This document shows, one piece after another, positions 20,729 to 64,000 of a stretch of 64,000 nt of DNA (position 1 is its first letter; the number at the start of each line of letters is the position of its first letter). A program made the position numbers and the translations under genes. The DNA lies in IMG/VR virus record IMGVR_UViG_3300024317_000004, positions 1 to 64,000 of that record; one strand, written 5' to 3'. The stretch is from a virus. Under the pieces are notes generated by a model, which saw only the letters and a list, made by a program, of their open reading frames with translations, was not told the origin of the DNA and did not search any database.

Positions 20729-20810
20729 GAAGTGGTGCCCGAGCGGTTCAAGGGGTCGCGCTGTAAACGCGATGGCTACGCCGACGTGAGTTCGAATCTC
20801 ACCCACTTCA
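20729..20810 (+). tRNA. tRNA-Tyr(GTA), long variable arm, CCA not encoded
   Basis: Acceptor GAAGTGG/CCACTTC+A; anticodon stem TCGCG/CGCGA with loop CTGTAAA; T-arm GTGAG-TTCGAAT-CTCAC. Confidence 0.92.
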
Positions 20811-54691: not shown

Positions 54692-56932
54692 ATGACCACA
54701 GCACCGAAGATTATTGCCCTGCAGTCTGCGGGCCCCGGAGTCCTGACGGCCGTTCTTGAGACCATCAACCAAGAGCCCAAGGGCTCTCAGCCAGACGTCC
54801 TCGACCTGGATCCGGCGCACTGGACGGTCAATGGCGCGCACCCAGTTGCGATCCACCGGTACTCATTGCCATGGTACGAGCAACCCAAAGCCGCAGACGG
54901 AACCTACGAGATCACGGTTCGTCACTCGGTGTTCTTAACGCTTGGGCAGCCTTTCGTAGACGCGACGTCCTACGCGGTTGCGTGCCCTTATGGGAACGCT
55001 GGGCTTGTGTTTGGCAATAGGACGACGTTCGCGTCGTGCATCAAGACCAACCAGTCTGCGTATGCAAAAGCATCCACCGCGCGGTTCGCGAACCTCGGGG
55101 TGTGGCTCGGCGACGGGGGCCCGATGGCCCTCAGTCCTTTGCCGGCGTACGAAGTCATTCGCGAGTCGGATGGCGCGGTCATCTACAAAGGAACCGCCGC
55201 GGCGGGCATCGATGACACTGGGTTAGCGGGGCCTAAGAGCGGGGAAATTGTCCATCGCCTGGATCTGAGCGCAGTCCCCGAGGGCGGCGCTTATTTTGTG
55301 AGTGTTCCGGGTATCGGCAGAAGCCGATCGTTTTGGGTTGGCGGCGACGTTGAGCGCAGGACCGCCATCGTTGCACTGCACAGCTTGACGATCGCTCGGT
55401 GTGGGCAGGAACTCAAGGAACCGTGGTCGCCATGGGCAAGGCCTGCGTGCCACCCACGCGTTACGGACGCGCGGTCACCCTATCCGGGCAGCGGGTTTAT
55501 TCAGGTACCCAGTGGCGCGCAGACATTCGAGATGCGCGGCATGCGGCACGACGCCGGGGACTTTGACAGAAACCCCAACCACGCCATCATTCCAATCTTA
55601 CTGCTTACCTACTTCGAAGCGTGGCCCAGTCACTTCACCGATCGGCAGTATGACATTCCGGAGTCTGGAAACGGCACGCCGGACCTGCTGGACGAGGCCC
55701 TTTGGGATGTCCTGGGGCTTGAGCATCTCCAGATTACCGATGCGAATGACCCGCTCAATGGCGGAGTTCGCAGCGGTACCGAGCAAGCGCGCCATCCAGA
55801 CTACGGAATTGATAACGCGGTACTCGACAAGGGTGTGTACTCCACGTGGGGGGTGGACGGTCAGGCTGATTCGCCCGGCGAAGGCTTTACCGCCTTTGCG
55901 GCCGGGATCTTTGCTCAGGCAAGTCGATTGGTTCGCCCCTACGACGCGGCACATGCAGACGATCTGCTCGGAAGAGCACGTCTCGCGTGGGGCTATCACG
56001 CCAGCCACAACACCGCGACGGCGATCAAGGCATACAATCTTTACGCCTCGCTTCAGCTCTATCTGACGACGGGCGAAAGCCCGTTCCATGATCTGTTCAA
56101 GGCGCAAGCGAACGCGATTCTCGTAAAGGATGGCAGTTGGCCCGTTCAGTATCGAGGCGGCAATCTGGCCGCGAAAGTGCAGACCGTGCACTTTGCCTCG
56201 TACACGCTACCCACATCACGCGCTGTCGATGCGACGTTGGTCGATGCGATCAAGGCACGCGTGATTCGGGAGGCCGACCAGGGCGGGTATCACGGAATTC
56301 ATCCGCTCACCGACCCATATCCCGTGGGTGCAACGAAGTTCCTGGGATACGGAGCACTGACCGCACCGGGCCGGAACGACGCAGATGCGTTTGCGAGTCT
56401 CTACGAGACCGACCCCGCCAAGAAGCAGCAGCGCATCAACAAGATGAGCCTGCTTGCTGACGGCATCCTTGGACTCAATGCCATGGGCATGAGCTATGTG
56501 GTCGGCATCGGGACCGATCAACCGAATTGCCCGGGGCACCTGGATAGCTTCTTCGCGGAGAAAGACACGCTCCACCCCATCCCAGGTGTCATGGTGTACG
56601 GGCCGAGCGAAGGACGCAGCGGCTACGACTACCAGATGACCATCACGAACAAGCTCGTTCCCTCCTACGAGCAACTGCCAATTGGCAGGCGTTTCGTGCA
56701 TGCCTGGGCATCGATTTTAAACGCGGAAGACACCATATGGGAGGTGCGCGTCTGGTTCGCCGTCCTGATGGCCTTCCTCCACGACGCCTCCAAAGACCCT
56801 GCACCCACGCTCCCGCCTCCGCCACAGCCGAGTACCGGCGTCACGCTCACAGCAGACCAATGCGATCGGTTTACACGTGCTGTTAGCGACCTCAACGCGA
56901 TCCGCGACGAGCTGGGCTTGAAAGCCAGCTAA
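54692..56932 (+). CDS. Glycoside hydrolase family 9 with N-terminal Ig-like domain
   Basis: HDAGDFDR, PESGNG.PDLLDEA.W, LG.N..GMSYVVGIG, E.TI motifs. Confidence 0.88.
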   Translation: MTTAPKIIALQSAGPGVLTAVLETINQEPKGSQPDVLDLDPAHWTVNGAHPVAIHRYSLPWYEQPKAADGTYEITVRHSVFLTLGQPFVDATSYAVACPYGNAGLVFGNRTTFASCIKTNQSAYAKASTARFANLGVWLGDGGPMALSPLPAYEVIRESDGAVIYKGTAAAGIDDTGLAGPKSGEIVHRLDLSAVPEGGAYFVSVPGIGRSRSFWVGGDVERRTAIVALHSLTIARCGQELKEPWSPWARPACHPRVTDARSPYPGSGFIQVPSGAQTFEMRGMRHDAGDFDRNPNHAIIPILLLTYFEAWPSHFTDRQYDIPESGNGTPDLLDEALWDVLGLEHLQITDANDPLNGGVRSGTEQARHPDYGIDNAVLDKGVYSTWGVDGQADSPGEGFTAFAAGIFAQASRLVRPYDAAHADDLLGRARLAWGYHASHNTATAIKAYNLYASLQLYLTTGESPFHDLFKAQANAILVKDGSWPVQYRGGNLAAKVQTVHFASYTLPTSRAVDATLVDAIKARVIREADQGGYHGIHPLTDPYPVGATKFLGYGALTAPGRNDADAFASLYETDPAKKQQRINKMSLLADGILGLNAMGMSYVVGIGTDQPNCPGHLDSFFAEKDTLHPIPGVMVYGPSEGRSGYDYQMTITNKLVPSYEQLPIGRRFVHAWASILNAEDTIWEVRVWFAVLMAFLHDASKDPAPTLPPPPQPSTGVTLTADQCDRFTRAVSDLNAIRDELGLKAS

Positions 56933-56949
56933 ACAAACAGGAGATTTTC

Positions 56950-57978
56950 TTGACGACTTCGATTGCGATTTTCCACAAAGACCTGAGCCAAGCGAGCGCG
57001 CGCTATTCACACATTGCGCTTGGCGTCGGCGCCATGCACACCGCAAAGGTCCTGCGGGCACACGGCATTCGCGCGCGGGTGTTTGCCGTGAAGACCCCGG
57101 AGCAGATCGCCGAGATTCTCTCGACACACGGTCCAGTCAAGTTCGCAGTGCTCGAAGCGCCGTGGATCAAAACAAAGGCCATCGAAGAGCTAATCAGCCT
57201 GTTCCCGTCCACCGAGTTTCTGCTGCGCTGCCATTCACAAGTGGCATTTTTGCAGGTCGATCAAAACGCGGTCCGCCTGGTCCGGGAAGCGTTGCGCTTG
57301 CAAGAGATCAGCACGAACTTCCGCGTCTGTGGCAATTCCAAGCGGCTCTGCGATTTCCTTCGGGTCGCGTACGGATCACAGTGCCTCTTGCTGCCAAACC
57401 TGTACGACATTCATCGCGAAAAGCGACGGCACCGACCCTTGCCACGCGTCGGTCCCATCAAGATCGGATCGTTTGGCGCGAGCCGAATCCTCAAGTTCCA
57501 TTCGACGGCTGCTGCCGCCGCCCTGATGGTCGCAAGAAACCGCGGCACGGACCTAAGCTTCTATCTCAACGTCGGACGCGATGACCCTGGCGAGTGGATC
57601 CTCAACGCGATCCGCCAGATGTTTGCAGACGTGCCGTGGGCCAAGCTCATCGAGATTCCGTGGTGCCCATGGCCAGAGTTCCGTCATCAGATTGCGACGA
57701 TGGACGTGTGTCTACAGCTCTCGGCGACCGAGAGTTTCAACATCGTGACCGCTGATGCGGTTGCGGAAGGTGTCCCGAGCGTCGTAGGCCCTGCGATCGA
57801 CTGGGTGCCATCCTATTGGCAGGCGCCCATTGATGATCCTGCGGCCGTCGCACGCACCGCAGAGGTCCTGCTCGACGATCGCTATGCGCCCGAAGATGGG
57901 TTCAAGGCGCTCACAGAGTACGACGAGATGAGCGTGGCGGTGTGGAAGAAGACCCTCGCCACAGCGCTCGAGGACTAA
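56950..57978 (+). CDS. GT-B (GT4-like) glycosyltransferase
   Basis: IG.FG..R..K; MDV.LQ.S.TESFNIV.ADA...GVP.V. Confidence 0.85.
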   Translation: MTTSIAIFHKDLSQASARYSHIALGVGAMHTAKVLRAHGIRARVFAVKTPEQIAEILSTHGPVKFAVLEAPWIKTKAIEELISLFPSTEFLLRCHSQVAFLQVDQNAVRLVREALRLQEISTNFRVCGNSKRLCDFLRVAYGSQCLLLPNLYDIHREKRRHRPLPRVGPIKIGSFGASRILKFHSTAAAAALMVARNRGTDLSFYLNVGRDDPGEWILNAIRQMFADVPWAKLIEIPWCPWPEFRHQIATMDVCLQLSATESFNIVTADAVAEGVPSVVGPAIDWVPSYWQAPIDDPAAVARTAEVLLDDRYAPEDGFKALTEYDEMSVAVWKKTLATALED

Positions 57979-57996
57979 CCAAACGAAAGCAGGTGC

Positions 57997-58197
57997 ATGA
58001 TGGTACGAGCGAAGTTCAAGTGCGAGTCGGCCCACGAGAACGGTTACGCGATGCTGCGTGCCGTGTACGGACCGGAAAACGAACCGTGGTCCACCGCAAC
58101 GCCACACGGCGAGCTGCAAATCACGATCAGCAATCCCACTGCTCCCAAGTTCGAGGTGGGCAAGTGCTACTACCTGGACTTTTCGCCGGCGGAGTGA
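57997..58197 (+). CDS. Small conserved-type phage protein
   Basis: RAKF.C...EN..W..ATP.G......NP...F..G..YYLDF. Confidence 0.7.
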   Translation: MMVRAKFKCESAHENGYAMLRAVYGPENEPWSTATPHGELQITISNPTAPKFEVGKCYYLDFSPAE

Positions 58198-58363
58198 AGA
58201 AGACATTCGATGCCAAGTATCTGCGCGCTGGCGATAAAGTCCGCGTGTTCTCGTCCGGCCGATTCGGCTGCGTGATAAAGACAGCGTACCGGGAATGCCT
58301 TGTGACGCTGGACGGGGAACATGAGCCCGTTTGGGTGCCAACGCTTTACTTGGATGGTGTCTA

Positions 58364-58624
58364 TTGAAGCCCTCACTCGCCGAAGCCGAGGCCTTCCGCC
58401 GCGTGATCGAAACCGCTCGAGCGCTTGTTCGGTGTGCAGACGAGTTTCTGCCGGAGTCCCCCGAAGCCTGTCAGGAGTATCTCGAGGCCCACGAAAGCGC
58501 GCTCGAAACCTTCGGCAAGGTCTGCGAGGAGCAGGACGAAACGCGGCGGCTGGCGATCCTCAAGGAAGCCAGTGACCTTGCCGAAAGGCAGCGGTCATGG
58601 GAAGCGTGGATGCACAACTCCTAG
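58364..58624 (+). CDS. Hypothetical protein
   Basis: Helical ORF coupled to a small upstream ORF (58194-58367). Confidence 0.4.
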   Translation: MKPSLAEAEAFRRVIETARALVRCADEFLPESPEACQEYLEAHESALETFGKVCEEQDETRRLAILKEASDLAERQRSWEAWMHNS

Positions 58625-58650
58625 AAGCGGTCTGTGGGACCGGTTCGGTG

Positions 58651-58705
58651 GCTAGTAAAGGATCGTTTACTAGCGCATTCTGTTGGTAAAGGAAGCTTTA
58701 CTAGC
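58651..58705. repeat. Two tandem 24-bp palindromic sites
   Basis: GCTAGTAAA-GGATCG-TTTACTAGC (58651-58674) and GTTGGTAAA-GGAAGC-TTTACTAGC (58682-58705). Confidence 0.7.
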
Positions 58706-58796
58706 CTCGATGCCACGCCATATTCAACGAAACGGCCCGATCGTTTAATAAGCCCGCTGCCCTCGGTGGCTTGTTCAAGCGAGGCGAAACACGCGC

Positions 58797-59594
58797 ATGG
58801 AAAAGTGGAGTGAACCGAAAGGGCCACCACCGCGATGGCTCGACCTTGCCGACGAAGTCACGGCCGACGAGCCGAAGCCGCCTCGTGACCAGTTCGTCGT
58901 GGCGTGCATGGAGGCGTGCTTGCGACTCGATTGCAACCCGATGCAAGCGGCAGGCGTCACGGCCAACGTGATGAACGAGAGTGCGTGGGGGCAGTCGTAT
59001 CGCGGCAATAACTTGGGTGGCTGGAAGATCTACGAGCACTACGCGATCGCGTATCGCAAGGCTCATGGCAAAGGACCACGCTGGTGGCGCGGTCCCGGCA
59101 ACAAAGCGCCTGGGGCCACACCGAAAGACCTCAAAGGGGGCGATCCGCCGTGGTGCTTCTACAGAGCGTTCGAGTCCATCGAGGACTTTCTCGCGAGCTG
59201 GCTCAAGACGTTCGTTCCAGAGCCGCCCCTTGGTACGCCCTCTCGCGAGAGCAAAGGCGATCCCGCAACGGGTGATTACCGACTTGCGGGTGAACGATTT
59301 TGGGGCCGTCGGGCCAATTGGTTCGATGCCATGGTTGCGGCCGGGTACAAGGGCTCGCGCACCGAAGCGAGTCCCGAGCAAGCGATTGCCGAACATCACA
59401 GTTTGGTGCAGTCCGCCTTAACTCGCTGGGGGCAATCACGTTTAGGCGTGACGGCTGACGGAGCCTGGGGGCCCAAAAGCAAAACGGCCTGCGCCGCGTT
59501 TCAGGCTTGGCACGGACTGTCGGTCACGAACATTCTAGACGACGAGACGCTGGTTGCTTTGGTGCACAGCAAACAACAGCCCCAACCAGAGTGA
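58797..59594 (+). CDS. Endolysin: lysozyme-like (GH73-type) domain plus peptidoglycan-binding domain
   Basis: ESAWG....NNL.G.K...YRAF.S...AGY; LGV.ADG.WGP.S......FQ..HGL. Confidence 0.8.
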   Translation: MEKWSEPKGPPPRWLDLADEVTADEPKPPRDQFVVACMEACLRLDCNPMQAAGVTANVMNESAWGQSYRGNNLGGWKIYEHYAIAYRKAHGKGPRWWRGPGNKAPGATPKDLKGGDPPWCFYRAFESIEDFLASWLKTFVPEPPLGTPSRESKGDPATGDYRLAGERFWGRRANWFDAMVAAGYKGSRTEASPEQAIAEHHSLVQSALTRWGQSRLGVTADGAWGPKSKTACAAFQAWHGLSVTNILDDETLVALVHSKQQPQPE

Positions 59595-59605
59595 CCTGGT
59601 TGGGG
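59580..59605. terminator. Hairpin at the convergence of the late operon and the array transcript
   Basis: CCCCAACCAG-agtgac-CTGGTTGGGG. Confidence 0.55.
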
Positions 59606-60374
59606 CCATTCCCTGTCCCTTCCGCTCCTTTGCAGTCCTGCCCCATCCGCTCCATTGCCATCGGTTGCAATGAGGCCCGTTCCTCTCGTAGCCCCTCCCG
59701 TCCTATCCATTCCACTCGGTTGCTGTCGCTTGCTCTCCCCTCCGTCCCCCTGCTTTGCCCGAGCCTTCGCCCGGCTCCGATGCAGCACGCTGCACCCGAG
59801 TCGAGCCACCGGCGAACCGGCGAACTCGGGGCCTTTGCGATCCTTTCCCCTGCTGTCCTGACCTGTCCGCATCCCATCGGCTCCCCTCCCCTCCCCAACG
59901 CTCCCCATTAGCGCTCGGGACGAGGCCCGGATTGCTCCGGGCGCCGTTGGGCTCCACTCCTGTCCGGTTCACTCCGTTGCCGCCCTTGCCTCTGCTTTCC
60001 GCTCCCCTCTGCCCCAATGCAGTCCGTCGTTTCCAACGCACTCGCTTGAATGCGCTCGAAACGGCGCTCGCGCGAACGCGATGCCGGCCATTCCGTTCCT
60101 CCCCGGCCCAATCATGTCATTCCCAGGCCGCTCCCATGCTCTGCAGTCGGCCCCCCTCCATCGCGTTCCGCTTCACCCCAGTACACATCCACTCCTCTCC
60201 CCTCTCCAAAGCACCTGAATGCTCTCGAGACGGGACCCGATCTCTCGGGACACGTCGCCTTTCCTCTGCGGTCCGTTCACTTGCTCTCCGGTGCCGTCCC
60301 ATCACTTCCTTTGCAGCCAACTCTCGTCCTGCCCACTCCCCGCTTTTCCTCTCCGCTCCACCCCTCTGCCGTCC
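59606..60374 (-). ncRNA. Array of about five 5-nt-periodic tracts (GGA/GCA + NN)n separated by hairpin linkers; putative guide RNA array
   Basis: Plus-strand NNTCC/NNTGC phase is held over 59609-59803, 59834-59904, 59946-60035, 60090-60205 and 60260-60374. Linkers carry stems; three share GCnCTCGrrACG. Confidence 0.75.
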
Positions 60375-60389
60375 GAAGTCTAAAAAGAA

Positions 60390-60986
60390 TTATGCGGCTT
60401 TCTTTGCTAGGTCGCCGTCCCAGCAAACGACCGCGAAAATCCCGAACGGACCACCACGCTGAACTCTGTAGTCGCCGAGACCGTTTCCGATGCCGGCCTC
60501 TTCGAGCAAGAGCCTGATAGTTGCTTCATCCAAGATCTCCGTACGCAACCGAAGATTGAACTTAGCGCTCCATTCGTCGAGCCGCGCACGATGTCTCATG
60601 ACGCGGCCTTTTGTTGCGGGAATTACGACCGCTCGGCTGTCAACCTCGAAGTCCTTTGCGCGAGTTTTTCGGTCCTTGAGATACAAGGGCACCATGTCTT
60701 CGCAAACCACGCACGCAGCGGGCACGAGATACTTTAAGGACTTGCGAGATCCTCGCTGTTTGTGTCCAGCGCCCATTTCGGCGATTGCGCGGCTAATCCC
60801 AGTACCTGCGATGCATAGTCCGCCCTTAGAGTCGCGATGCGTGCCTTTCTCGGCAATGTCTCGCGGCAACTCTGTGGTGATCTGCACGCGACGTGTTGAT
60901 TTTCCACTGTCCGCCTGCGCCTGATCGCCAAACTTGTGAATCAGCAACGGCGAAACGCCCTCGATCCAGACCTCAATCGTTTTCAC
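60390..60986 (-). CDS. Stand-alone RAMP/Cas7-like (RRM-fold) protein, putative RNA-guided effector
   Basis: N-terminal strand IEVWIEGVSPLLIH and C-terminal Gly-rich loop AGIGNGLGDYRVQRGGPFG; GGAGG RBS; flanked by pentamer arrays. Confidence 0.65.
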   Translation of the reverse strand: MKTIEVWIEGVSPLLIHKFGDQAQADSGKSTRRVQITTELPRDIAEKGTHRDSKGGLCIAGTGISRAIAEMGAGHKQRGSRKSLKYLVPAACVVCEDMVPLYLKDRKTRAKDFEVDSRAVVIPATKGRVMRHRARLDEWSAKFNLRLRTEILDEATIRLLLEEAGIGNGLGDYRVQRGGPFGIFAVVCWDGDLAKKAA

Positions 60987-61000
60987 TTTGCCTCCATTAA

Positions 61001-61074
61001 GCCCTTTCGGGCCCCTTCCATTCCCCCGCTCTCCATCCCCACCACTTGCTCTCCTTCGTGTTCCAGTCCAACGC
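61001..61074 (-). ncRNA. Leader pentamer tract (13 units) ending in a GCCC-GAAA-GGGC hairpin
   Basis: Minus strand GCGTT GGACT GGAAC ACGAA GGAGA GCAAG TGGTG GGGAT GGAGA GCGGG GGAAT GGAAG GGGCC. Confidence 0.7.
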
Positions 61075-61078
61075 GCAC

Positions 61079-61106
61079 ACTATACGTACTTTGTACGTAC
61101 AAGCAA
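61079..61106 (-). promoter_or_regulatory. Promoter of the RAMP-like/array unit with palindromic operator
   Basis: TTGCTT-16 nt-TATAGT; spacer holds TACGTAC-TTT-GTACGTA. Confidence 0.7.
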
Positions 61107-61107
61107 G

Positions 61108-61272
61108 TTACTTCTTTACTTCTCGTAGCAATCGTCTTGCTTCGAACAACGCAATGCGTCTGACGAACGACGACACATCTTCACCTGATAATTCTGCGGC
61201 TTTCGCGAGATCTCGCTTTTCCGCTTCCGTGAGACGCAACTCGAGACGCGCCGACCGACCGGACTCAACCAT
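61108..61272 (-). CDS. Ribbon-helix-helix (DUF1778-like) regulator, 54 aa, absent from the ORF track
   Basis: MVESGRSARLELRLTEAEKRDLAKAAELSGEDVSSFVRRIALFEARRLLREVKK. Confidence 0.75.
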   Translation of the reverse strand: MVESGRSARLELRLTEAEKRDLAKAAELSGEDVSSFVRRIALFEARRLLREVKK

Positions 61273-61971
61273 AGGCCAATCATACGGCTACCATACGTAC
61301 ATGGCCACGGCGATATCACGGAAGGTTACAGAAGCACGTAAAACGACGGCGCGGCTCAAGGAGCTTGGCTACAAGCTAGGGCAGTGGGTAGACGCCCCGC
61401 CAGCCGACGTGCCATAGTTCGACCGTTCGGCACGACGTTGTCCGTGACGTGTTGAGCTCCTGAGACGGCCTGGTCACCCGCCAGGCCGTTTTGCTTTTGC
61501 GCTAGACATCCCGCCGTCACGCTGGCACAGTCCCCATCAGAAGCGTTTCTCGCAAGAGGAACTACCGCACGATTCGCCCTGGCCCTCACCGGCTAGGGCG
61601 TTTTGCTATTTCTGGCACGCCGTGCGACGGTCCATCGTACACTTTCACACGTAGATGGGACTGATACGAGGCCTTGGCATGGTGCTGAGGCCTTTTGTTT
61701 TTGTGGCACACTGGAGCCAAGGGATCCGCTGCTCTGGATTATCCCGGGGATAGCAGGTCGCTTACCTAAGGCACGCCGGTCCGTGGCACAGAACCGCGGG
61801 CCGGGGTGTTATGCTTGCGTCAATCCGTTTGCCTGGGCGATGGGCCCGCGCACGTAACAGGCGTAGGGCCACACGGAGTGGGATCCGCGTTACGCGGGTC
61901 GTGCACAGACCCGGAGGCGAAAGCAGCCGGGTGCTTGTGCATGCGAGTTTGCGGGGAGTTTGAGGGAGCCT

Positions 61972-62850
61972 TCACATCTCGCCCAACGCTCGTGCCATGG
62001 CCTCGGCGACGCGTTTCCAGTCGTATCCCTGCACGTGAATCGTCACGCTCGCTTCGACGGTCGAGCCGTACGTAATCTGGATCTCTTGCCGCCGCTCAGT
62101 CGCATCGACGGTAACGACGCGACCGTTGATCAGTGCGCTGTACCGTCCCCCGTTCAGATCTTCCCATACGACATCGCTCATAGTTTTTGTGTCCCCTTCC
62201 CCTTCCAACAACCTCGTTTGCAGTTCTGCCGTCTCGGCATACATGAGGCATTTGCCGGTAAACTTACCATTGCTATAGATTGGCAAATCGTGGAATGGGT
62301 ATTGTTCCAAGGATCGCCTTACCATCTCATTGGTCTCGGCAGCATTGAGGTACTGTCTCGTCTTATTCAACCACACGTACTCGTCATCCGTAGTTGCCGA
62401 TGGGCCAGAAACAAAAGCATACGCTTGTCCGTAGGCTATAGCGTTAACGAGGACGCTGCTTACGCCAAACATTTTGCCAATCTTCTTCGTGGATAGGCTG
62501 TGTGTTCTGTAGATTTTTCTAATCTCTCTTACCTCATCGTCACTCAGCTTCCTGTATTGCCTCCCCTTCTCGATCATGTCCTTTGTGTTGGCTTTAGAGT
62601 CGCCTACGAATAGGTGGCCCCAGTTGCAGCAGGGCGGGTTGTCGCATGAATGGCAGATGAACATTCCGTCGGGAATAGGACCAACAGCGAGTTCCCACGC
62701 GGCCCTGTGAGCCGCGTATTGTTTCTTGCGATCTTCCCAGTAAACGCGGCCGTACCCGTTTCTATTTGTAGGCCCAGTCCACACGATGCACCCGCTATCG
62801 TTGTCGTGGGTGCACTTCGCATAAAGATCGCTGATCGTTTTCAGCATCAT
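61972..62850 (-). CDS. HNH homing endonuclease with HTH and extra C-terminal region
   Basis: CIVWTG...GYG...AHR.AW....G.IP.G..ICH.CDNP.CCN..HL..G....N..D...KGR. Confidence 0.9.
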   Translation of the reverse strand: MMLKTISDLYAKCTHDNDSGCIVWTGPTNRNGYGRVYWEDRKKQYAAHRAAWELAVGPIPDGMFICHSCDNPPCCNWGHLFVGDSKANTKDMIEKGRQYRKLSDDEVREIRKIYRTHSLSTKKIGKMFGVSSVLVNAIAYGQAYAFVSGPSATTDDEYVWLNKTRQYLNAAETNEMVRRSLEQYPFHDLPIYSNGKFTGKCLMYAETAELQTRLLEGEGDTKTMSDVVWEDLNGGRYSALINGRVVTVDATERRQEIQITYGSTVEASVTIHVQGYDWKRVAEAMARALGEM

Positions 62851-62858
62851 CTTGGCCT

Positions 62859-63110
62859 CTAACTTCCTGCCCGTTTCTTTGATTTCTTCTCCTGACCCCA
62901 TCCTGGCTTGCGCAACGTAAGCCCCTCGGCAAGCTCGGGCTGTTCTTGCACCCACGTCTGCAGAGTGCGCCTGCCGATCCCGAGCCTCTCGGCGGCTTTG
63001 GGCACGCTGCCTTCGGCCTTCAGCGCCCTGCTGATCTTCAGCCTGAACGCCTCGGGGTCCGTTGCTCGCAGGGCTAGTAAAGCGTGCGTGGCGGGATGGG
63101 TGATAGCCAT
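62859..63110 (-). CDS. Fis-type HTH regulator
   Basis: ALKAEGSVPKAAERLGIGRRTLQTW. Confidence 0.8.
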   Translation of the reverse strand: MAITHPATHALLALRATDPEAFRLKISRALKAEGSVPKAAERLGIGRRTLQTWVQEQPELAEGLTLRKPGWGQEKKSKKRAGS

Positions 63111-63116
63111 TCCGCT

Positions 63117-63208
63117 ATTATGATGCCGTCACGGCACGTACGCAAGCCTACACTTTACCACGAAAACAAAACCGTTACCTCGACATGATGCCGTCACGGC
63201 ACCATACT
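63117..63208. promoter_or_regulatory. Divergent promoter pair with identical 18-bp operators
   Basis: ATGATGCCGTCACGGCAC at 63120-63137 and 63185-63202. Leftward TTGCGT-17-CATAAT; rightward TCGACA-17-CATACT. Confidence 0.8.
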
Positions 63209-63215
63209 GTTTTGT

Positions 63216-63515
63216 ATGGACACAGCGACGATGGCAACCGGCACCGAGCAGTGGGAAATCGAGCATGACGAACTCGTTCAGGTCTTCGAAGAGATCGCCA
63301 ACGAACACGCTGCCCACTGGGAGAGCATTGTGGACGGCCTCGCTTCCGACGAGATCCCTCCCCCGCCCGCCTCGCCCTGGCCCTCGCTCGAAGCTGCCAT
63401 GCGTGAGTGCGAGTACGTCGCCCTGCTGGCCGTCGCGGTCACCCCGAGCGAGCGGTACGTGGTGCGTGGCGACGATGTCACCTGCACGGTCCGACCGGCC
63501 GCGAGGGCATCATGA
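63216..63515 (+). CDS. Acidic hypothetical protein
   Basis: First ORF after the rightward promoter; ATGA-coupled to the next ORF. Confidence 0.55.
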   Translation: MDTATMATGTEQWEIEHDELVQVFEEIANEHAAHWESIVDGLASDEIPPPPASPWPSLEAAMRECEYVALLAVAVTPSERYVVRGDDVTCTVRPAARAS

Positions 63516-64000
63516 GTTACGAAGCAGCCCCCGCTACCGCCCTTGTCGCAACCCACTGCTGTCTCTGCGGGCGCCCGCTGGTCGATGCAGAATCCGTCGA
63601 GTGTGGCGTTGGCCCGGTCTGCCGTCGCAAGTACGGCTACGTGGACGGCCCAGACTGTAACCGCACCGAGGCAAACCGGCTGGTGTACGAAATTGCGGCT
63701 GCCCCGGCTGCCAATGATGTGCCCGGCAAAGTTACAGCCATTCGCCTGCTTGGGTACTACAAGCTCGCTGAGAGGCTAACCGAGCGGCTCCTATCGAACA
63801 TGGGCACAGTCCTGGTTACCTATGAAGCCGACACGATGGTGATTGAATCCGACGGGCTCACAGATGACGGTTTTAAGGTCCTGCTAGCCATTCTGCGCTC
63901 GGTGCCGGGTCGTCGTTGGGATGCTAACCGCCGGGTCAATACCGTTCCCGTGAGCCAGAAGCGCGCACTGTGGGATGCGCTCCGCAGCAAGATGCCGGCG
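63512..64000 (+). CDS. DUF6011-like Zn-finger protein with HARP-like domain (runs off the window)
   Basis: CCLCGRPLVDAESVECGVGPVC; later LRSVPGRRWD.....VP; frame open to the window end. Confidence 0.65.
   Translation, partial: MSYEAAPATALVATHCCLCGRPLVDAESVECGVGPVCRRKYGYVDGPDCNRTEANRLVYEIAAAPAANDVPGKVTAIRLLGYYKLAERLTERLLSNMGTVLVTYEADTMVIESDGLTDDGFKVLLAILRSVPGRRWDANRRVNTVPVSQKRALWDALRSKMPA

What the first reader, a model, noticed from the sequence alone, without database searches (positions are those of the whole stretch)
60310..60863. The variable dinucleotides spell a gapped target: first downstream tract matches codon positions 1-2 of the RAMP-like gene
Minus-strand pentamers 60374-60310 are GGACG GCAGA GGGGT GGAGC GGAGA GGAAA AGCGG GGAGT GGGCA GGACG AGAGT TGGCT GCAAA. 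Their NN string is CG GA GT GC GA AA GG GT CA CG GT CT AA. Codons 42-54 of the gene (60863-60825, RDIAEKGTHRDSK) begin CG GA AT GC GA AA GG AC CA CG GA TC AA. That is 9 of 13 exact dinucleotides (8 of the first 10) when every third target base is skipped; a rough hand binomial at 1/16 each gives about 1e-8 per site. Inference: the code is NN-x-NN-x, with the skipped base on the wobble position, so synonymous mutation gives no escape. The RNA has mRNA sense, so it would pair with the template DNA strand. The mismatches read as plausible substitutions (R-D/E-V-A-E-K-G-V-H-R), suggesting the real target is the homologous gene of a competing phage.
Basis: partly seen in the sequence, partly recalled or inferred. 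Interest (0 to 1): 0.95.

Follow-up and report, generated by a model that had tools for sequence, protein, structure and literature searches.

The report
Phage VIPR guide matching own gene
This soil phage carries a VIPR system, a CRISPR-like RNA-guided DNA silencer first described in 2026, and one of its guide RNAs spells most of a stretch of the system's own protein gene, probably because it is aimed at the same gene in rival phages.

Summary
The 13 pentamers at 60374-60310 (minus strand) and codons 42-54 of the 198-aa gene read as written, with 9 of 13 dinucleotides identical. It is the only site with 7 or more matches in the 72,417-base phage genome. Shuffled NN orders reach 9 or more in 10 of 2000 trials.

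The locus is a VIPR system: a Cas7/Csm3-like Vipr protein flanked by pentamer-repeat guide RNAs with hairpin tails. Guides aimed at relatives' vipr genes, with weaker self-match, are also in print (10.64898/2026.10.15.759431).

So this is a new member of a known kind. This scan has already noted VIPR on other DNA: 516 notes in at least 386 genomes.

Two local points stand out:
- Of 61 related loci tested, only this one has a guide resembling its own vipr gene.
- Its repeats are GGR-NN, whereas all 60 relatives with arrays use GGY-NN.

No better-matching external target was found, so "aimed at a rival's homologue" remains an inference.

The parts
61108..61272 (-). 54-aa ribbon-helix-helix gene directly upstream of the leader tract. 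It is a candidate regulator or vap-like accessory gene; this was not tested.
   Evidence: ORF. Pfam TacA1 1.1e-7 and NikA-like 1.1e-6. A promoter-like site lies upstream of it at 61307-61279.
61010..61074 (-). Leader pentamer tract (upstream vrRNA candidate), 13 units. Its NN string matches codons 1-13 of vipr at 7 of 13.
   Evidence: It is the only site in the genome with 7 or more matches. Gene-restricted shuffle p = 0.0026 (5000 shuffles). Nucleotide identity is 17/26 = 0.65.
60987..61016 (-). Short GNRA-type hairpin and ribosome-binding stretch between the leader tract and the start codon.
   Evidence: Fold of -9.9 kcal/mol, z = -1.45, which is not exceptional.
60390..60986 (-). vipr gene: 198 aa, RAMP/Cas7-like.
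   Evidence: ORF. No Pfam family. phrog_4652 at 2.2e-17. AlphaFold2 pLDDT 83.7. Foldseek to Csm3/Cas7 chains from E = 9.2e-6. 360 homologues at E <= 1e-3.
60825..60863 (-). Codons 42-54 (RDIAEKGTHRDSK): the site that the first downstream tract spells at 9 of 13 dinucleotides.
60948..60986 (-). Codons 1-13: the site that the leader tract spells at 7 of 13.
60255..60374 (-). Downstream unit 1 tract: 24 in-phase pentamers. Units 1-13 (60374-60310) are the finding.
60205..60254 (-). Unit 1 tail with two hairpins.
   Evidence: -24.1 kcal/mol, z = -2.96. It shares a motif with the tails of units 2 and 3 (families D6 and D11; consensus fold).
60085..60179 (-). Unit 2 tract, 19 pentamers.
   Evidence: No site in the genome reaches 7 of 10.
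60030..60084 (-). Unit 2 tail with two hairpins.
   Evidence: -30.5 kcal/mol, z = -3.20.
59951..60025 (-). Unit 3 tract, 15 pentamers.
59895..59950 (-). Unit 3 tail.
   Evidence: The first hairpin is clear; overall z = -1.07. Aligned with the tails of units 1 and 2.
59829..59904 (-). Unit 4: two short tracts of 7 and 8 pentamers.
59609..59748 (-). Unit 5: tracts of 15 and 9 pentamers.
59575..59610 (-). Intrinsic terminator that ends the array.
   Evidence: 16-pair stem followed by a T-run. -27 kcal/mol, z = -5.41.

Best explanation
The locus 59,575-61,272 is a VIPR system of a complete 72-kb soil phage. By analogy with the published systems, Vipr protomers would bind each G-G-R scaffold of the pentamer-repeat RNAs, one protomer per repeat. 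They would display the two variable bases, which pair with a DNA strand in which every third base is skipped, and binding would silence transcription.

The first 10-13 units of the first downstream RNA, and more weakly the leader RNA, are guide segments directed at vipr genes of this phage's own clade. They spell codons 42-54 and 1-13, with the skip on the wobble base. The phage's own gene differs at 2 of the first 10 units (4 of 13), which keeps self-match at or below the level counted as a target. The intended target would then be the vipr gene of a closely related rival.

What is shown here: the anatomy, the fold, the conserved gene-array association, and the statistical excess of the self-resemblance. 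What is inferred: RNA ends, binding, silencing, and the identity of the target.
For: Evidence that this is a VIPR system:
- Cas7/Csm3-like fold.
- 5-nt periodicity of GG next to the gene.
- The same gene is accompanied by pentamer tracts in 60 of 63 distinct IMG/VR relatives.
- One upstream tract plus a downstream array of units with conserved two-hairpin tails and a terminator.
- The record is a virus, complete by CheckV.
- The published description matches (10.64898/2026.04.26.720920: Results, Discussion and methods sections 18, 20, 26, 27 read).

Evidence that the guide is vipr-directed:
- It has the unique best hit in the genome, in frame, with the skip on the wobble base.
- Shuffles reach it in 10 of 2000 window-wide and 0 of 2000 within the gene.
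- Only register 4-5 with skip 1 gives it.
- Of 61 loci tested against their own vipr gene, only the window exceeds its shuffles (8/10; the others reach at most 6/10).
- A second tract, the leader, has its only hit of 7 or more in the same gene, at codon 1.
- My own arithmetic: the gene holds 0.41% of start sites, so two of eight tracts landing there by chance has a probability of about 5e-4.

Evidence for a clade-specific target:
- The guide reads CA at codon 50 (His). His is shared only by the window and P0002; 34 of the 35 other aligned relatives have Tyr.
- P0002 has Val49 where the guide reads GT.

Precedent: vrRNAs that target relatives' vipr genes, including the early codons, with lower self-match (10.64898/2026.10.15.759431, sections 8, 17, 25, 26 read).
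Against: - No better-matching vipr gene was found. Of 37 IMG/VR hits to the 8 self-matching units, none lies in a vipr gene. The exact 10-unit pattern gave 2 JGI hits and 6 GTDB hits, none in vipr.
- Among 64 distinct vipr genes, cross-matches of 8/10 or more number 3, against 0-8 in ten shuffles, so vipr-directed guides are not general in this family.
- The tract runs on for 24 units in phase before its tail, and identity over all 24 is only 0.54. The 5' segment may therefore not be a guide of its own.
- Published guides have 9-16 units and cleaner scaffolds. Here only 54 of 82 tract pentamers begin with GG.
- With looser windows the window-wide shuffle rate rises to 9 of 200.
- The leader's 7/13 is equalled in 5 of the other 8 variable-register controls; only its position is unusual.
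- The other six tracts match nothing in the genome.
- The first 10 units score 0.85 against the phage's own gene. That is above the 0.8 cut-off the papers use, which fits self-targeting as well as it fits avoidance.
Confidence: 0.55

Rival explanations
1. Autoregulation. The same VIPR system, but the partial match is the real target. The complex would bind its own vipr coding region (codons 42-51, perhaps also 1-13) weakly and damp its own expression.
For: - The first 10 units score 8/10 dinucleotides and 17/20 = 0.85 nucleotides against the own gene. That is above the 0.8 threshold used for natural targets in 10.64898/2026.04.26.720920 (methods section 27 read).
- Both tracts that flank the gene resemble it.
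- No external target was found.
Against: - The papers report no self-targeting hits at 0.8 or more in the clades they checked, and lower self-match scores where guides resemble self (sections named above).
- 60 relatives show nothing similar, so this is not a family habit.
- Identity falls to 0.77 over 13 units and 0.54 over 24 units.
Confidence: 0.2
2. Relic. The 5' part of unit 1 and the leader are decayed remains of former guides, or of the process that makes guides, and no longer act on anything.
For: - The array is degenerate. Only 66% of its pentamers begin with GG, against 89% in relatives.
- The match covers only the first 13 of 24 units.
- The leader reaches only 0.65.
Against: - The scaffold shift to a purine is uniform across all tracts.
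- The tails keep their folds.
- The gene is intact, and near-identical copies occur in other soil runs.
Together these argue for a maintained system.
Confidence: 0.12
3. Chance. The locus is a VIPR system, but the 9/13 match is a coincidence found by looking at many tracts and sites.
For: - With sliding windows, 9 of 200 shuffles reach 8/10.
- Codon positions 1-2 and the NN bases share a purine- and GC-rich make-up.
Against: - 10 of 2000 shuffles window-wide and 0 of 2000 within the gene.
- 60 relatives never exceed 6/10 on their own gene.
- A second tract points to the same gene.
- Only the published register and skip give the match.
Confidence: 0.08

Closest known systems
VIPR systems (Vipr + vrRNA). 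Reference: type II of Escherichia phage SUSP1 and the Pseudomonas fulva prophage (bioRxiv 10.64898/2026.04.26.720920 and 10.64898/2026.04.26.720927).
   Same: - A small stand-alone RAMP protein.
- One upstream RNA plus a downstream array of pentamer-repeat RNAs with structured 3' tails.
- A phage-borne locus.
- The variable dinucleotides read with a one-base skip that falls on the wobble position.
   Different: - The scaffold is G-G-R (A 67%, G 24%, C 9%, T 0%) rather than G-G-Y. The cryo-EM paper says the position-3 pocket excludes purines.
- Tracts are longer (up to 24 units) and more degenerate.
- Tails are two plain hairpins rather than a pseudoknot, by prediction only.
- tblastn from this protein does not reach SUSP1 in the phage collection: 10 records matched, none of them SUSP1.
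- The VIPR type (I-VII) could not be assigned because the figures and tables were not visible.
vrRNAs that target relatives' vipr genes (solo vrRNAs of SUSP1-family phages, and such guides on VIPR-positive phages; bioRxiv 10.64898/2026.10.15.759431, section 8).
   Same: - Guides that spell vipr coding sequence, including its first codons.
- The skip falls on the wobble base.
- Self-match is lower than a target-grade match.
   Different: - The carrier here has an intact vipr gene.
- It is a soil phage far from the Enterobacteriaceae phages.
- No matching rival gene is at hand, so targeting is inferred from self-resemblance alone.
Non-canonical VIPR repeat units (GAC/NN, CAC/NN, WGT/NN, TGH/NN; bioRxiv 10.64898/2026.10.21.760802, passages found with 'VIPR' read). 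The first paper also names NNNGG, YNNNG and NNNNG (methods section 20).
   Same: A Vipr-like protein beside 5-nt arrays whose fixed trinucleotide is not GGY.
   Different: GGA/GGR-NN is not named in the text I could read; figures S17 and S10 were not visible. Here the switch lies inside a clade whose 60 other array-bearing members are all GGY.
Class 1 CRISPR backbone (Cas7/Csm3 filament on crRNA).
   Same: - The fold matches.
- One protomer per repeat of the guide, with a thumb that breaks the duplex periodically (cryo-EM paper).
   Different: - No CRISPR array near the gene; cas genes were not searched for.
- 5-nt units with 2 read bases, rather than 6-nt units with 5.
- Binding and silencing rather than cleavage in the studied types.

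Membership tests
VIPR system | Vipr protein: a small RAMP with RRM core, glycine-rich loop and thumb. | tested here: met
   AlphaFold2 model with pLDDT 83.7 and pTM 0.78. Foldseek PDB top hits are Csm3/Cas7 chains: 8do6_E at E = 9.2e-6, 78 hits at E <= 0.001. The G-rich C-terminal loop G..GDYR..RGGPFG is conserved.
VIPR system | Tandem pentanucleotide repeats beside the gene, with a fixed trinucleotide and two variable bases. | tested here: met
   Autocorrelation peaks at lags 5, 10, 15 and 20. Logo: G 85%, G 80%, A 74%, then two variable positions. 60 of 63 distinct relatives carry such tracts.
VIPR system | Canonical GGY scaffold (pyrimidine at position 3). | tested here: not met
   Position 3 in the window is A 67%, G 24%, C 9%, T 0% over 54 GG units. 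In relatives it is C 48%, T 46% over 3,967 units. The papers allow 'a related consensus' and non-canonical units, so this is a variant, not an exclusion.
VIPR system | Repeat tract followed by a conserved structured 3' tail, with units in an array. | tested here: met
   Three linkers share sequence (D6 and D11) and a two-hairpin fold. RNA ends are unknown.
VIPR system | Carried by a virus, outside any CRISPR-cas locus. | tested here: met
   Virus record of 72,417 bases, CheckV 100%. TRF on 55,000-64,000 shows no CRISPR-like array. The rest of the genome was not searched for cas genes.
VIPR system | Targets obey the 1-nt skip rule, with the skip on the wobble base. | tested here: inconclusive
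   Only the self-resemblance is available. It appears only at register 4-5 with skip 1, in frame. No external target was found.
VIPR system | vrRNAs are expressed and co-purify with Vipr, and the complex binds DNA and represses. | not testable with these tools
   No RNA data are available for this phage. This needs bench work.
VIPR system | Sequence homology to the published Vipr proteins (X1U2U4 and others; SUSP1). | not tested
   Those sequences were not at hand. tblastn against the phage collection gave 10 records (Pseudomonas LESphi2, Gordonia phages, Listonella phiHSIC), none of them SUSP1. The link rests on fold, arrays and GGY-bearing relatives.
VIPR system | Accessory vap gene beside vipr. 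| tested here: inconclusive
   A 54-aa RHH gene lies directly upstream. No neighbour family is shared by more than 9 of 64 loci at BLAST 1e-5, and none of the 12 largest neighbour families, the only ones listed, includes the window.
CRISPR-Cas class 1 | Repeat-spacer array and further cas genes. | tested here: not met
   TRF lists only 7 short arrays of period 5-11 in 55,000-64,000. The neighbours identified are an RHH gene, an HNH endonuclease and an endolysin.

The most novel reading that the evidence does not exclude
The window and its one close relative (P0002) may be a lineage that switched the vrRNA scaffold from G-G-pyrimidine to G-G-purine. The switch would have come through changes in the helix-1 and G-loop pocket: P60A, A63G, R69A, A71M, G164A, P175V and E176Q, at positions held by 30-35 of the 35 other aligned relatives.

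Such a switch would give a Vipr/vrRNA pair orthogonal to GGY systems. It would be deaf to rivals' or satellites' decoy guides, yet armed with guides against vipr genes of its own clade.
Probability: 0.25. Interest if true: 0.65.

Novelty: new member of a known kind. Interest (0 to 1): 0.35.

Why it matters

The example has some use:
- It puts vipr-on-vipr guide resemblance in a soil phage lineage far from the enterobacterial phages where it was described.
- It is a natural case where the position-3 scaffold base changed from pyrimidine to purine inside a GGY clade. The accompanying substitutions lie where the cryo-EM work places the pocket that excludes purines. That gives testable candidate specificity residues and, if it holds, orthogonal Vipr/guide pairs for tools.

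Tried and rejected
Early ideas, dropped once the relatives and the papers identified the system: a CsrA or Shine-Dalgarno sponge, two-tier G-quadruplex RNA, and a TRAP-like ring-protein site. None of these was tested.

RNA families:
- The Rfam gathering search of the window gave only a tRNA.
- The E-value search of 59,500-61,200 gave one sub-threshold HOTTIP_1 hit (25.4 bits against a cut-off of 50). I take it as spurious. No hammerhead was found.

Search for the closest relative's DNA (P0002):
- The look-up of sequencing runs listed 5 soil DNA runs; no RNA holder was listed.
- Laying X2-X5 gave only pieces at 99% or more from X2 and X4, plus one unrelated 36-nt piece in each of X2, X4 and X5. 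X3 laid nothing. No divergent relative appeared.

External targets:
- IMG/VR scan with the 8 self-matching units: 37 hits, 0 in a vipr gene. Many hits lie in non-coding-looking frames.
- Exact 10-unit pattern in JGI metagenomes: 2 hits, 0 in vipr.
- The same pattern in GTDB genomes: 6 hits. Four lie in long ORFs of differing sequence, and none is in vipr.
- Exact patterns from unit 5b (9 units) and unit 3 (last 10 units) in IMG/VR: 0 hits each. These scans need perfect matches, so 80%-type targets would be missed.

Other checks:
- A single-protein scan of IMG/VR found no close relative.
- Cross-matching of all guides against 64 vipr genes gave 0 hits at 9/10 and 3 at 8/10, against 0-8 in shuffles.
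- Neighbour-gene clustering found no shared accessory gene.
- The listing of cluster members gave no UniProt accession linking relatives to the published Vipr list.
- Supplementary tables and all figures of the four preprints were not visible. They may show GGA-type logos (fig. S17; fig. S10), the type of this clade, and mismatch tolerance.
Full report
**Observation.** Their last two bases give the stated NN string. Codons 42-54 of the 198-aa ORF (60986-60390) are RDIAEKGTHRDSK, and the first two bases of these codons equal the NN string at 9 of 13 places. The alignment is in frame on the sense strand, so the skipped base is the wobble base. Eight of the 13 pentamers begin with GG.

**Is it more than chance?**
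- The site is the only one in the 64-kb window above 6 matches. It is the only one with 7 or more in the full 72,417-base genome.
- Shuffling the order of the 13 dinucleotides and rescanning the window gives 9 or more in 10 of 2000 trials. It gives 20 or more matching nucleotides in 54 of 2000. For the first ten units alone, 8 or more occurs in 17 of 2000.
- A looser test that slides 10-unit windows over the whole 24-unit tract reaches 8/10 in 9 of 200 shuffles.
- Restricted to the vipr gene, 0 of 2000 shuffles reach the observed value.
- Among the variable registers (pentamer positions 3-4, 4-5, 5-6) and skips of 0, 1 or 2 bases, only positions 4-5 with skip 1 reach 9; the other eight combinations reach 6-7.
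- As an empirical null, I tested 61 related loci against their own gene. Sixty never exceed 6/10, and only the window reaches 8/10, with 0 of 100 shuffles matching it.
This is the only site in the genome with 7 or more, and the gene-restricted shuffle p is 0.0026. Its size is unremarkable, since 5 of the other 8 variable-register controls also reach 7. Only its place is unusual.
- The gene holds about 0.41% of start sites. By my own arithmetic, two of eight tracts pointing into it by chance has a probability of about 5e-4.

I conclude that the resemblance is real.

**Anatomy.**
- A 54-aa ribbon-helix-helix gene lies at 61272-61108.
- It is followed by the leader tract, a small hairpin, the 198-aa gene, and then about 800 nt of purine-rich pentamer tracts (60374-59609).
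- The tracts are broken by structured linkers and closed by a strong terminator at 59610-59575.
- GG recurs with peaks at lags 5, 10, 15 and 20.
- Three linkers share sequence and a two-hairpin fold. Two of them fold well beyond shuffles, with z of about -3.
- No Rfam family fits.

**The protein.** It has no Pfam family and matches phrog_4652, of unknown function. A model built from 37 relatives has pLDDT 83.7. Its best PDB matches are Csm3/Cas7 chains of type III and type VII CRISPR complexes: E from 9.2e-6, with 78 hits at E <= 0.001.

**Relatives.**
- The family is large: 360 proteins at E <= 1e-3. Only one is close, P0002 at 86% identity; the next are at 59% or less.
- Of 161 IMG/VR matches, 80 loci were kept, giving 63 distinct genes besides the window's.
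- Sixty of these 63 carry pentamer tracts beside the gene, upstream, downstream or both. Their sequences show clean GGT/GGC-NN repeats followed by short tails.

- It describes VIPR systems: a phage-borne ancestral RAMP (Vipr) and vrRNAs of 9-16 GGY-NN repeats with a structured tail.
- The NN bases specify double-stranded DNA, with one skipped base per unit.
- The skip generally falls on the wobble position, so synonymous change gives no escape.
- This was shown by competitive binding, GFP repression and phage defence assays.

The companion cryo-EM paper (10.64898/2026.04.26.720927, Results part 1 read) adds three points:
- One protomer sits on each repeat.
- The complex forms a gapped RNA-DNA hybrid with the target strand.
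- The pocket for base 3 "sterically excludes purines".

A third preprint (10.64898/2026.10.15.759431, sections 8, 17, 25, 26 read) reports vrRNAs that target relatives' vipr genes, including the early codons, with self-match scores lower than match scores to other phages.

The idea of a homologous gene in a rival phage has direct precedent. This scan has itself noted VIPR on other DNA many times: 516 notes in at least 386 genomes.

**Reading of the self-resemblance.** By the papers' identity score, the match is 0.85 over the first 10 units, 0.77 over 13 and 0.54 over all 24. Their cut-off is 0.8. Whether it counts as self-targeting therefore depends on RNA ends that I cannot see.

Two details point to a target within the phage's own narrow clade:
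- The guide reads CA at codon 50 (His). His is found only in the window and P0002; 34 of the 35 other aligned relatives have Tyr.
- At codon 49 the guide reads GT (Val). The own gene has ACG (Thr), while P0002 has Val. If P0002's two Arg codons are CGN, its gene would match 9 of the first 10 units. This is a prediction from protein sequence only.

I rank the readings as follows:
1. A guide against rival clade members.
2. Weak autoregulation.
3. A decayed relic.
4. Chance.

- Scans for a better target found none in a vipr gene: 37 IMG/VR hits, 2 JGI hits and 6 GTDB hits.
- Other soil runs hold only near-identical copies of this phage.
- Vipr-directed guides are not general in the family: 3 cross-matches at 8/10, against 0-8 in shuffles.
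- The other six tracts match nothing in the genome.

**A variant scaffold.**
- In the window, base 3 of the unit is A in 67%, G in 24%, C in 9% and T in 0% of 54 GG units. In the 60 relatives with tracts it is C or T in 94% of 3,967 units, and in at least 74% in every locus.
- The window's tracts are also less regular: 54 of 82 units begin with GG, against 3,967 of 4,466 in relatives.
- The window and P0002 share substitutions at positions that 30-35 of the 35 other aligned relatives keep: Y50H, P60A, A63G, R69A, A71M, G164A, P175V and E176Q.
- Seven of these lie in the helix after strand 57-60 or in or next to the G-rich loop of the model. These are the elements that form the base-3 pocket in SUSP1 according to the cryo-EM paper. 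The mapping is by motif analogy (H17; D-aromatic-R), not by an alignment with SUSP1.
- GGA-NN arrays are not unique to this phage. Four of them have such arrays beside distant Vipr homologues (26-32% identity). In runs of at least four GGNNN units, base 3 is A in 33 of 39, 50 of 53, 24 of 28 and 30 of 35 units.
- Non-canonical units are also in print: GAC/NN and others (10.64898/2026.10.21.760802, passages read), and "a related consensus" in the first paper. I could not see the figures that would show whether GGA-NN is among them.

**Verdict.** The interpretation matches a published mechanism, apart from the unproven target. I file it as a new member of a known kind, with two local features worth a bench test.

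Noticed in passing
L216, L228, L161, L238 (IMG/VR loci): Clean GGA-NN pentamer arrays with their own tails lie beside distant Vipr homologues (26-32% identity to family members). A purine-scaffold class of VIPR arrays therefore exists in other phages. In runs of at least four GGNNN units, base 3 is A in 33/39, 50/53, 24/28 and 30/35 units.
   Followed up: partly
window 61108-61272 (-): A 54-aa ribbon-helix-helix gene (Pfam TacA1, NikA-like) lies directly upstream of the leader tract, with a promoter-like site before it. It may be the accessory or regulatory gene of the module.
   Followed up: partly
window 61972-62955 (-): A 327-aa HNH endonuclease with an HTH region lies on the same strand about 700 nt upstream of the module. 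Other notes of this scan describe VIPR cassettes that travel with HNH genes.
   Followed up: no
window 59609-60374 (-): Five copies of a roughly 30-nt motif mark the starts of tracts (family D1; minus-strand starts at 60374, 60149, 60025, 59663, 59638). This suggests a shared 5' element or processing site, so the first one or two 'units' of a tract may be partly fixed rather than variable.
   Followed up: no
window 58797-59594 (+): An endolysin-like gene with a PG_binding_1 domain converges on the array's terminator.
   Followed up: no
window 59550-61320: Contigs of two other soil metagenome runs from different studies (X2, X4) carry pieces of this locus at 99% identity or more. Two single-base differences were listed, at 59677 and 60737.
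   Followed up: partly
window 20729-20810 (+): One tRNA gene in the phage genome (Rfam, 59.3 bits).
   Followed up: no
phage collection, hits H1-H10: Cultured phages with a distant homologue (23-29% identity) annotated as hypothetical: Pseudomonas phage vB_Pae_LESphi2; Gordonia phages UmaThurman, Pipp, Trine, Ecliptus and ODay; and Listonella phage phiHSIC.
   Followed up: no
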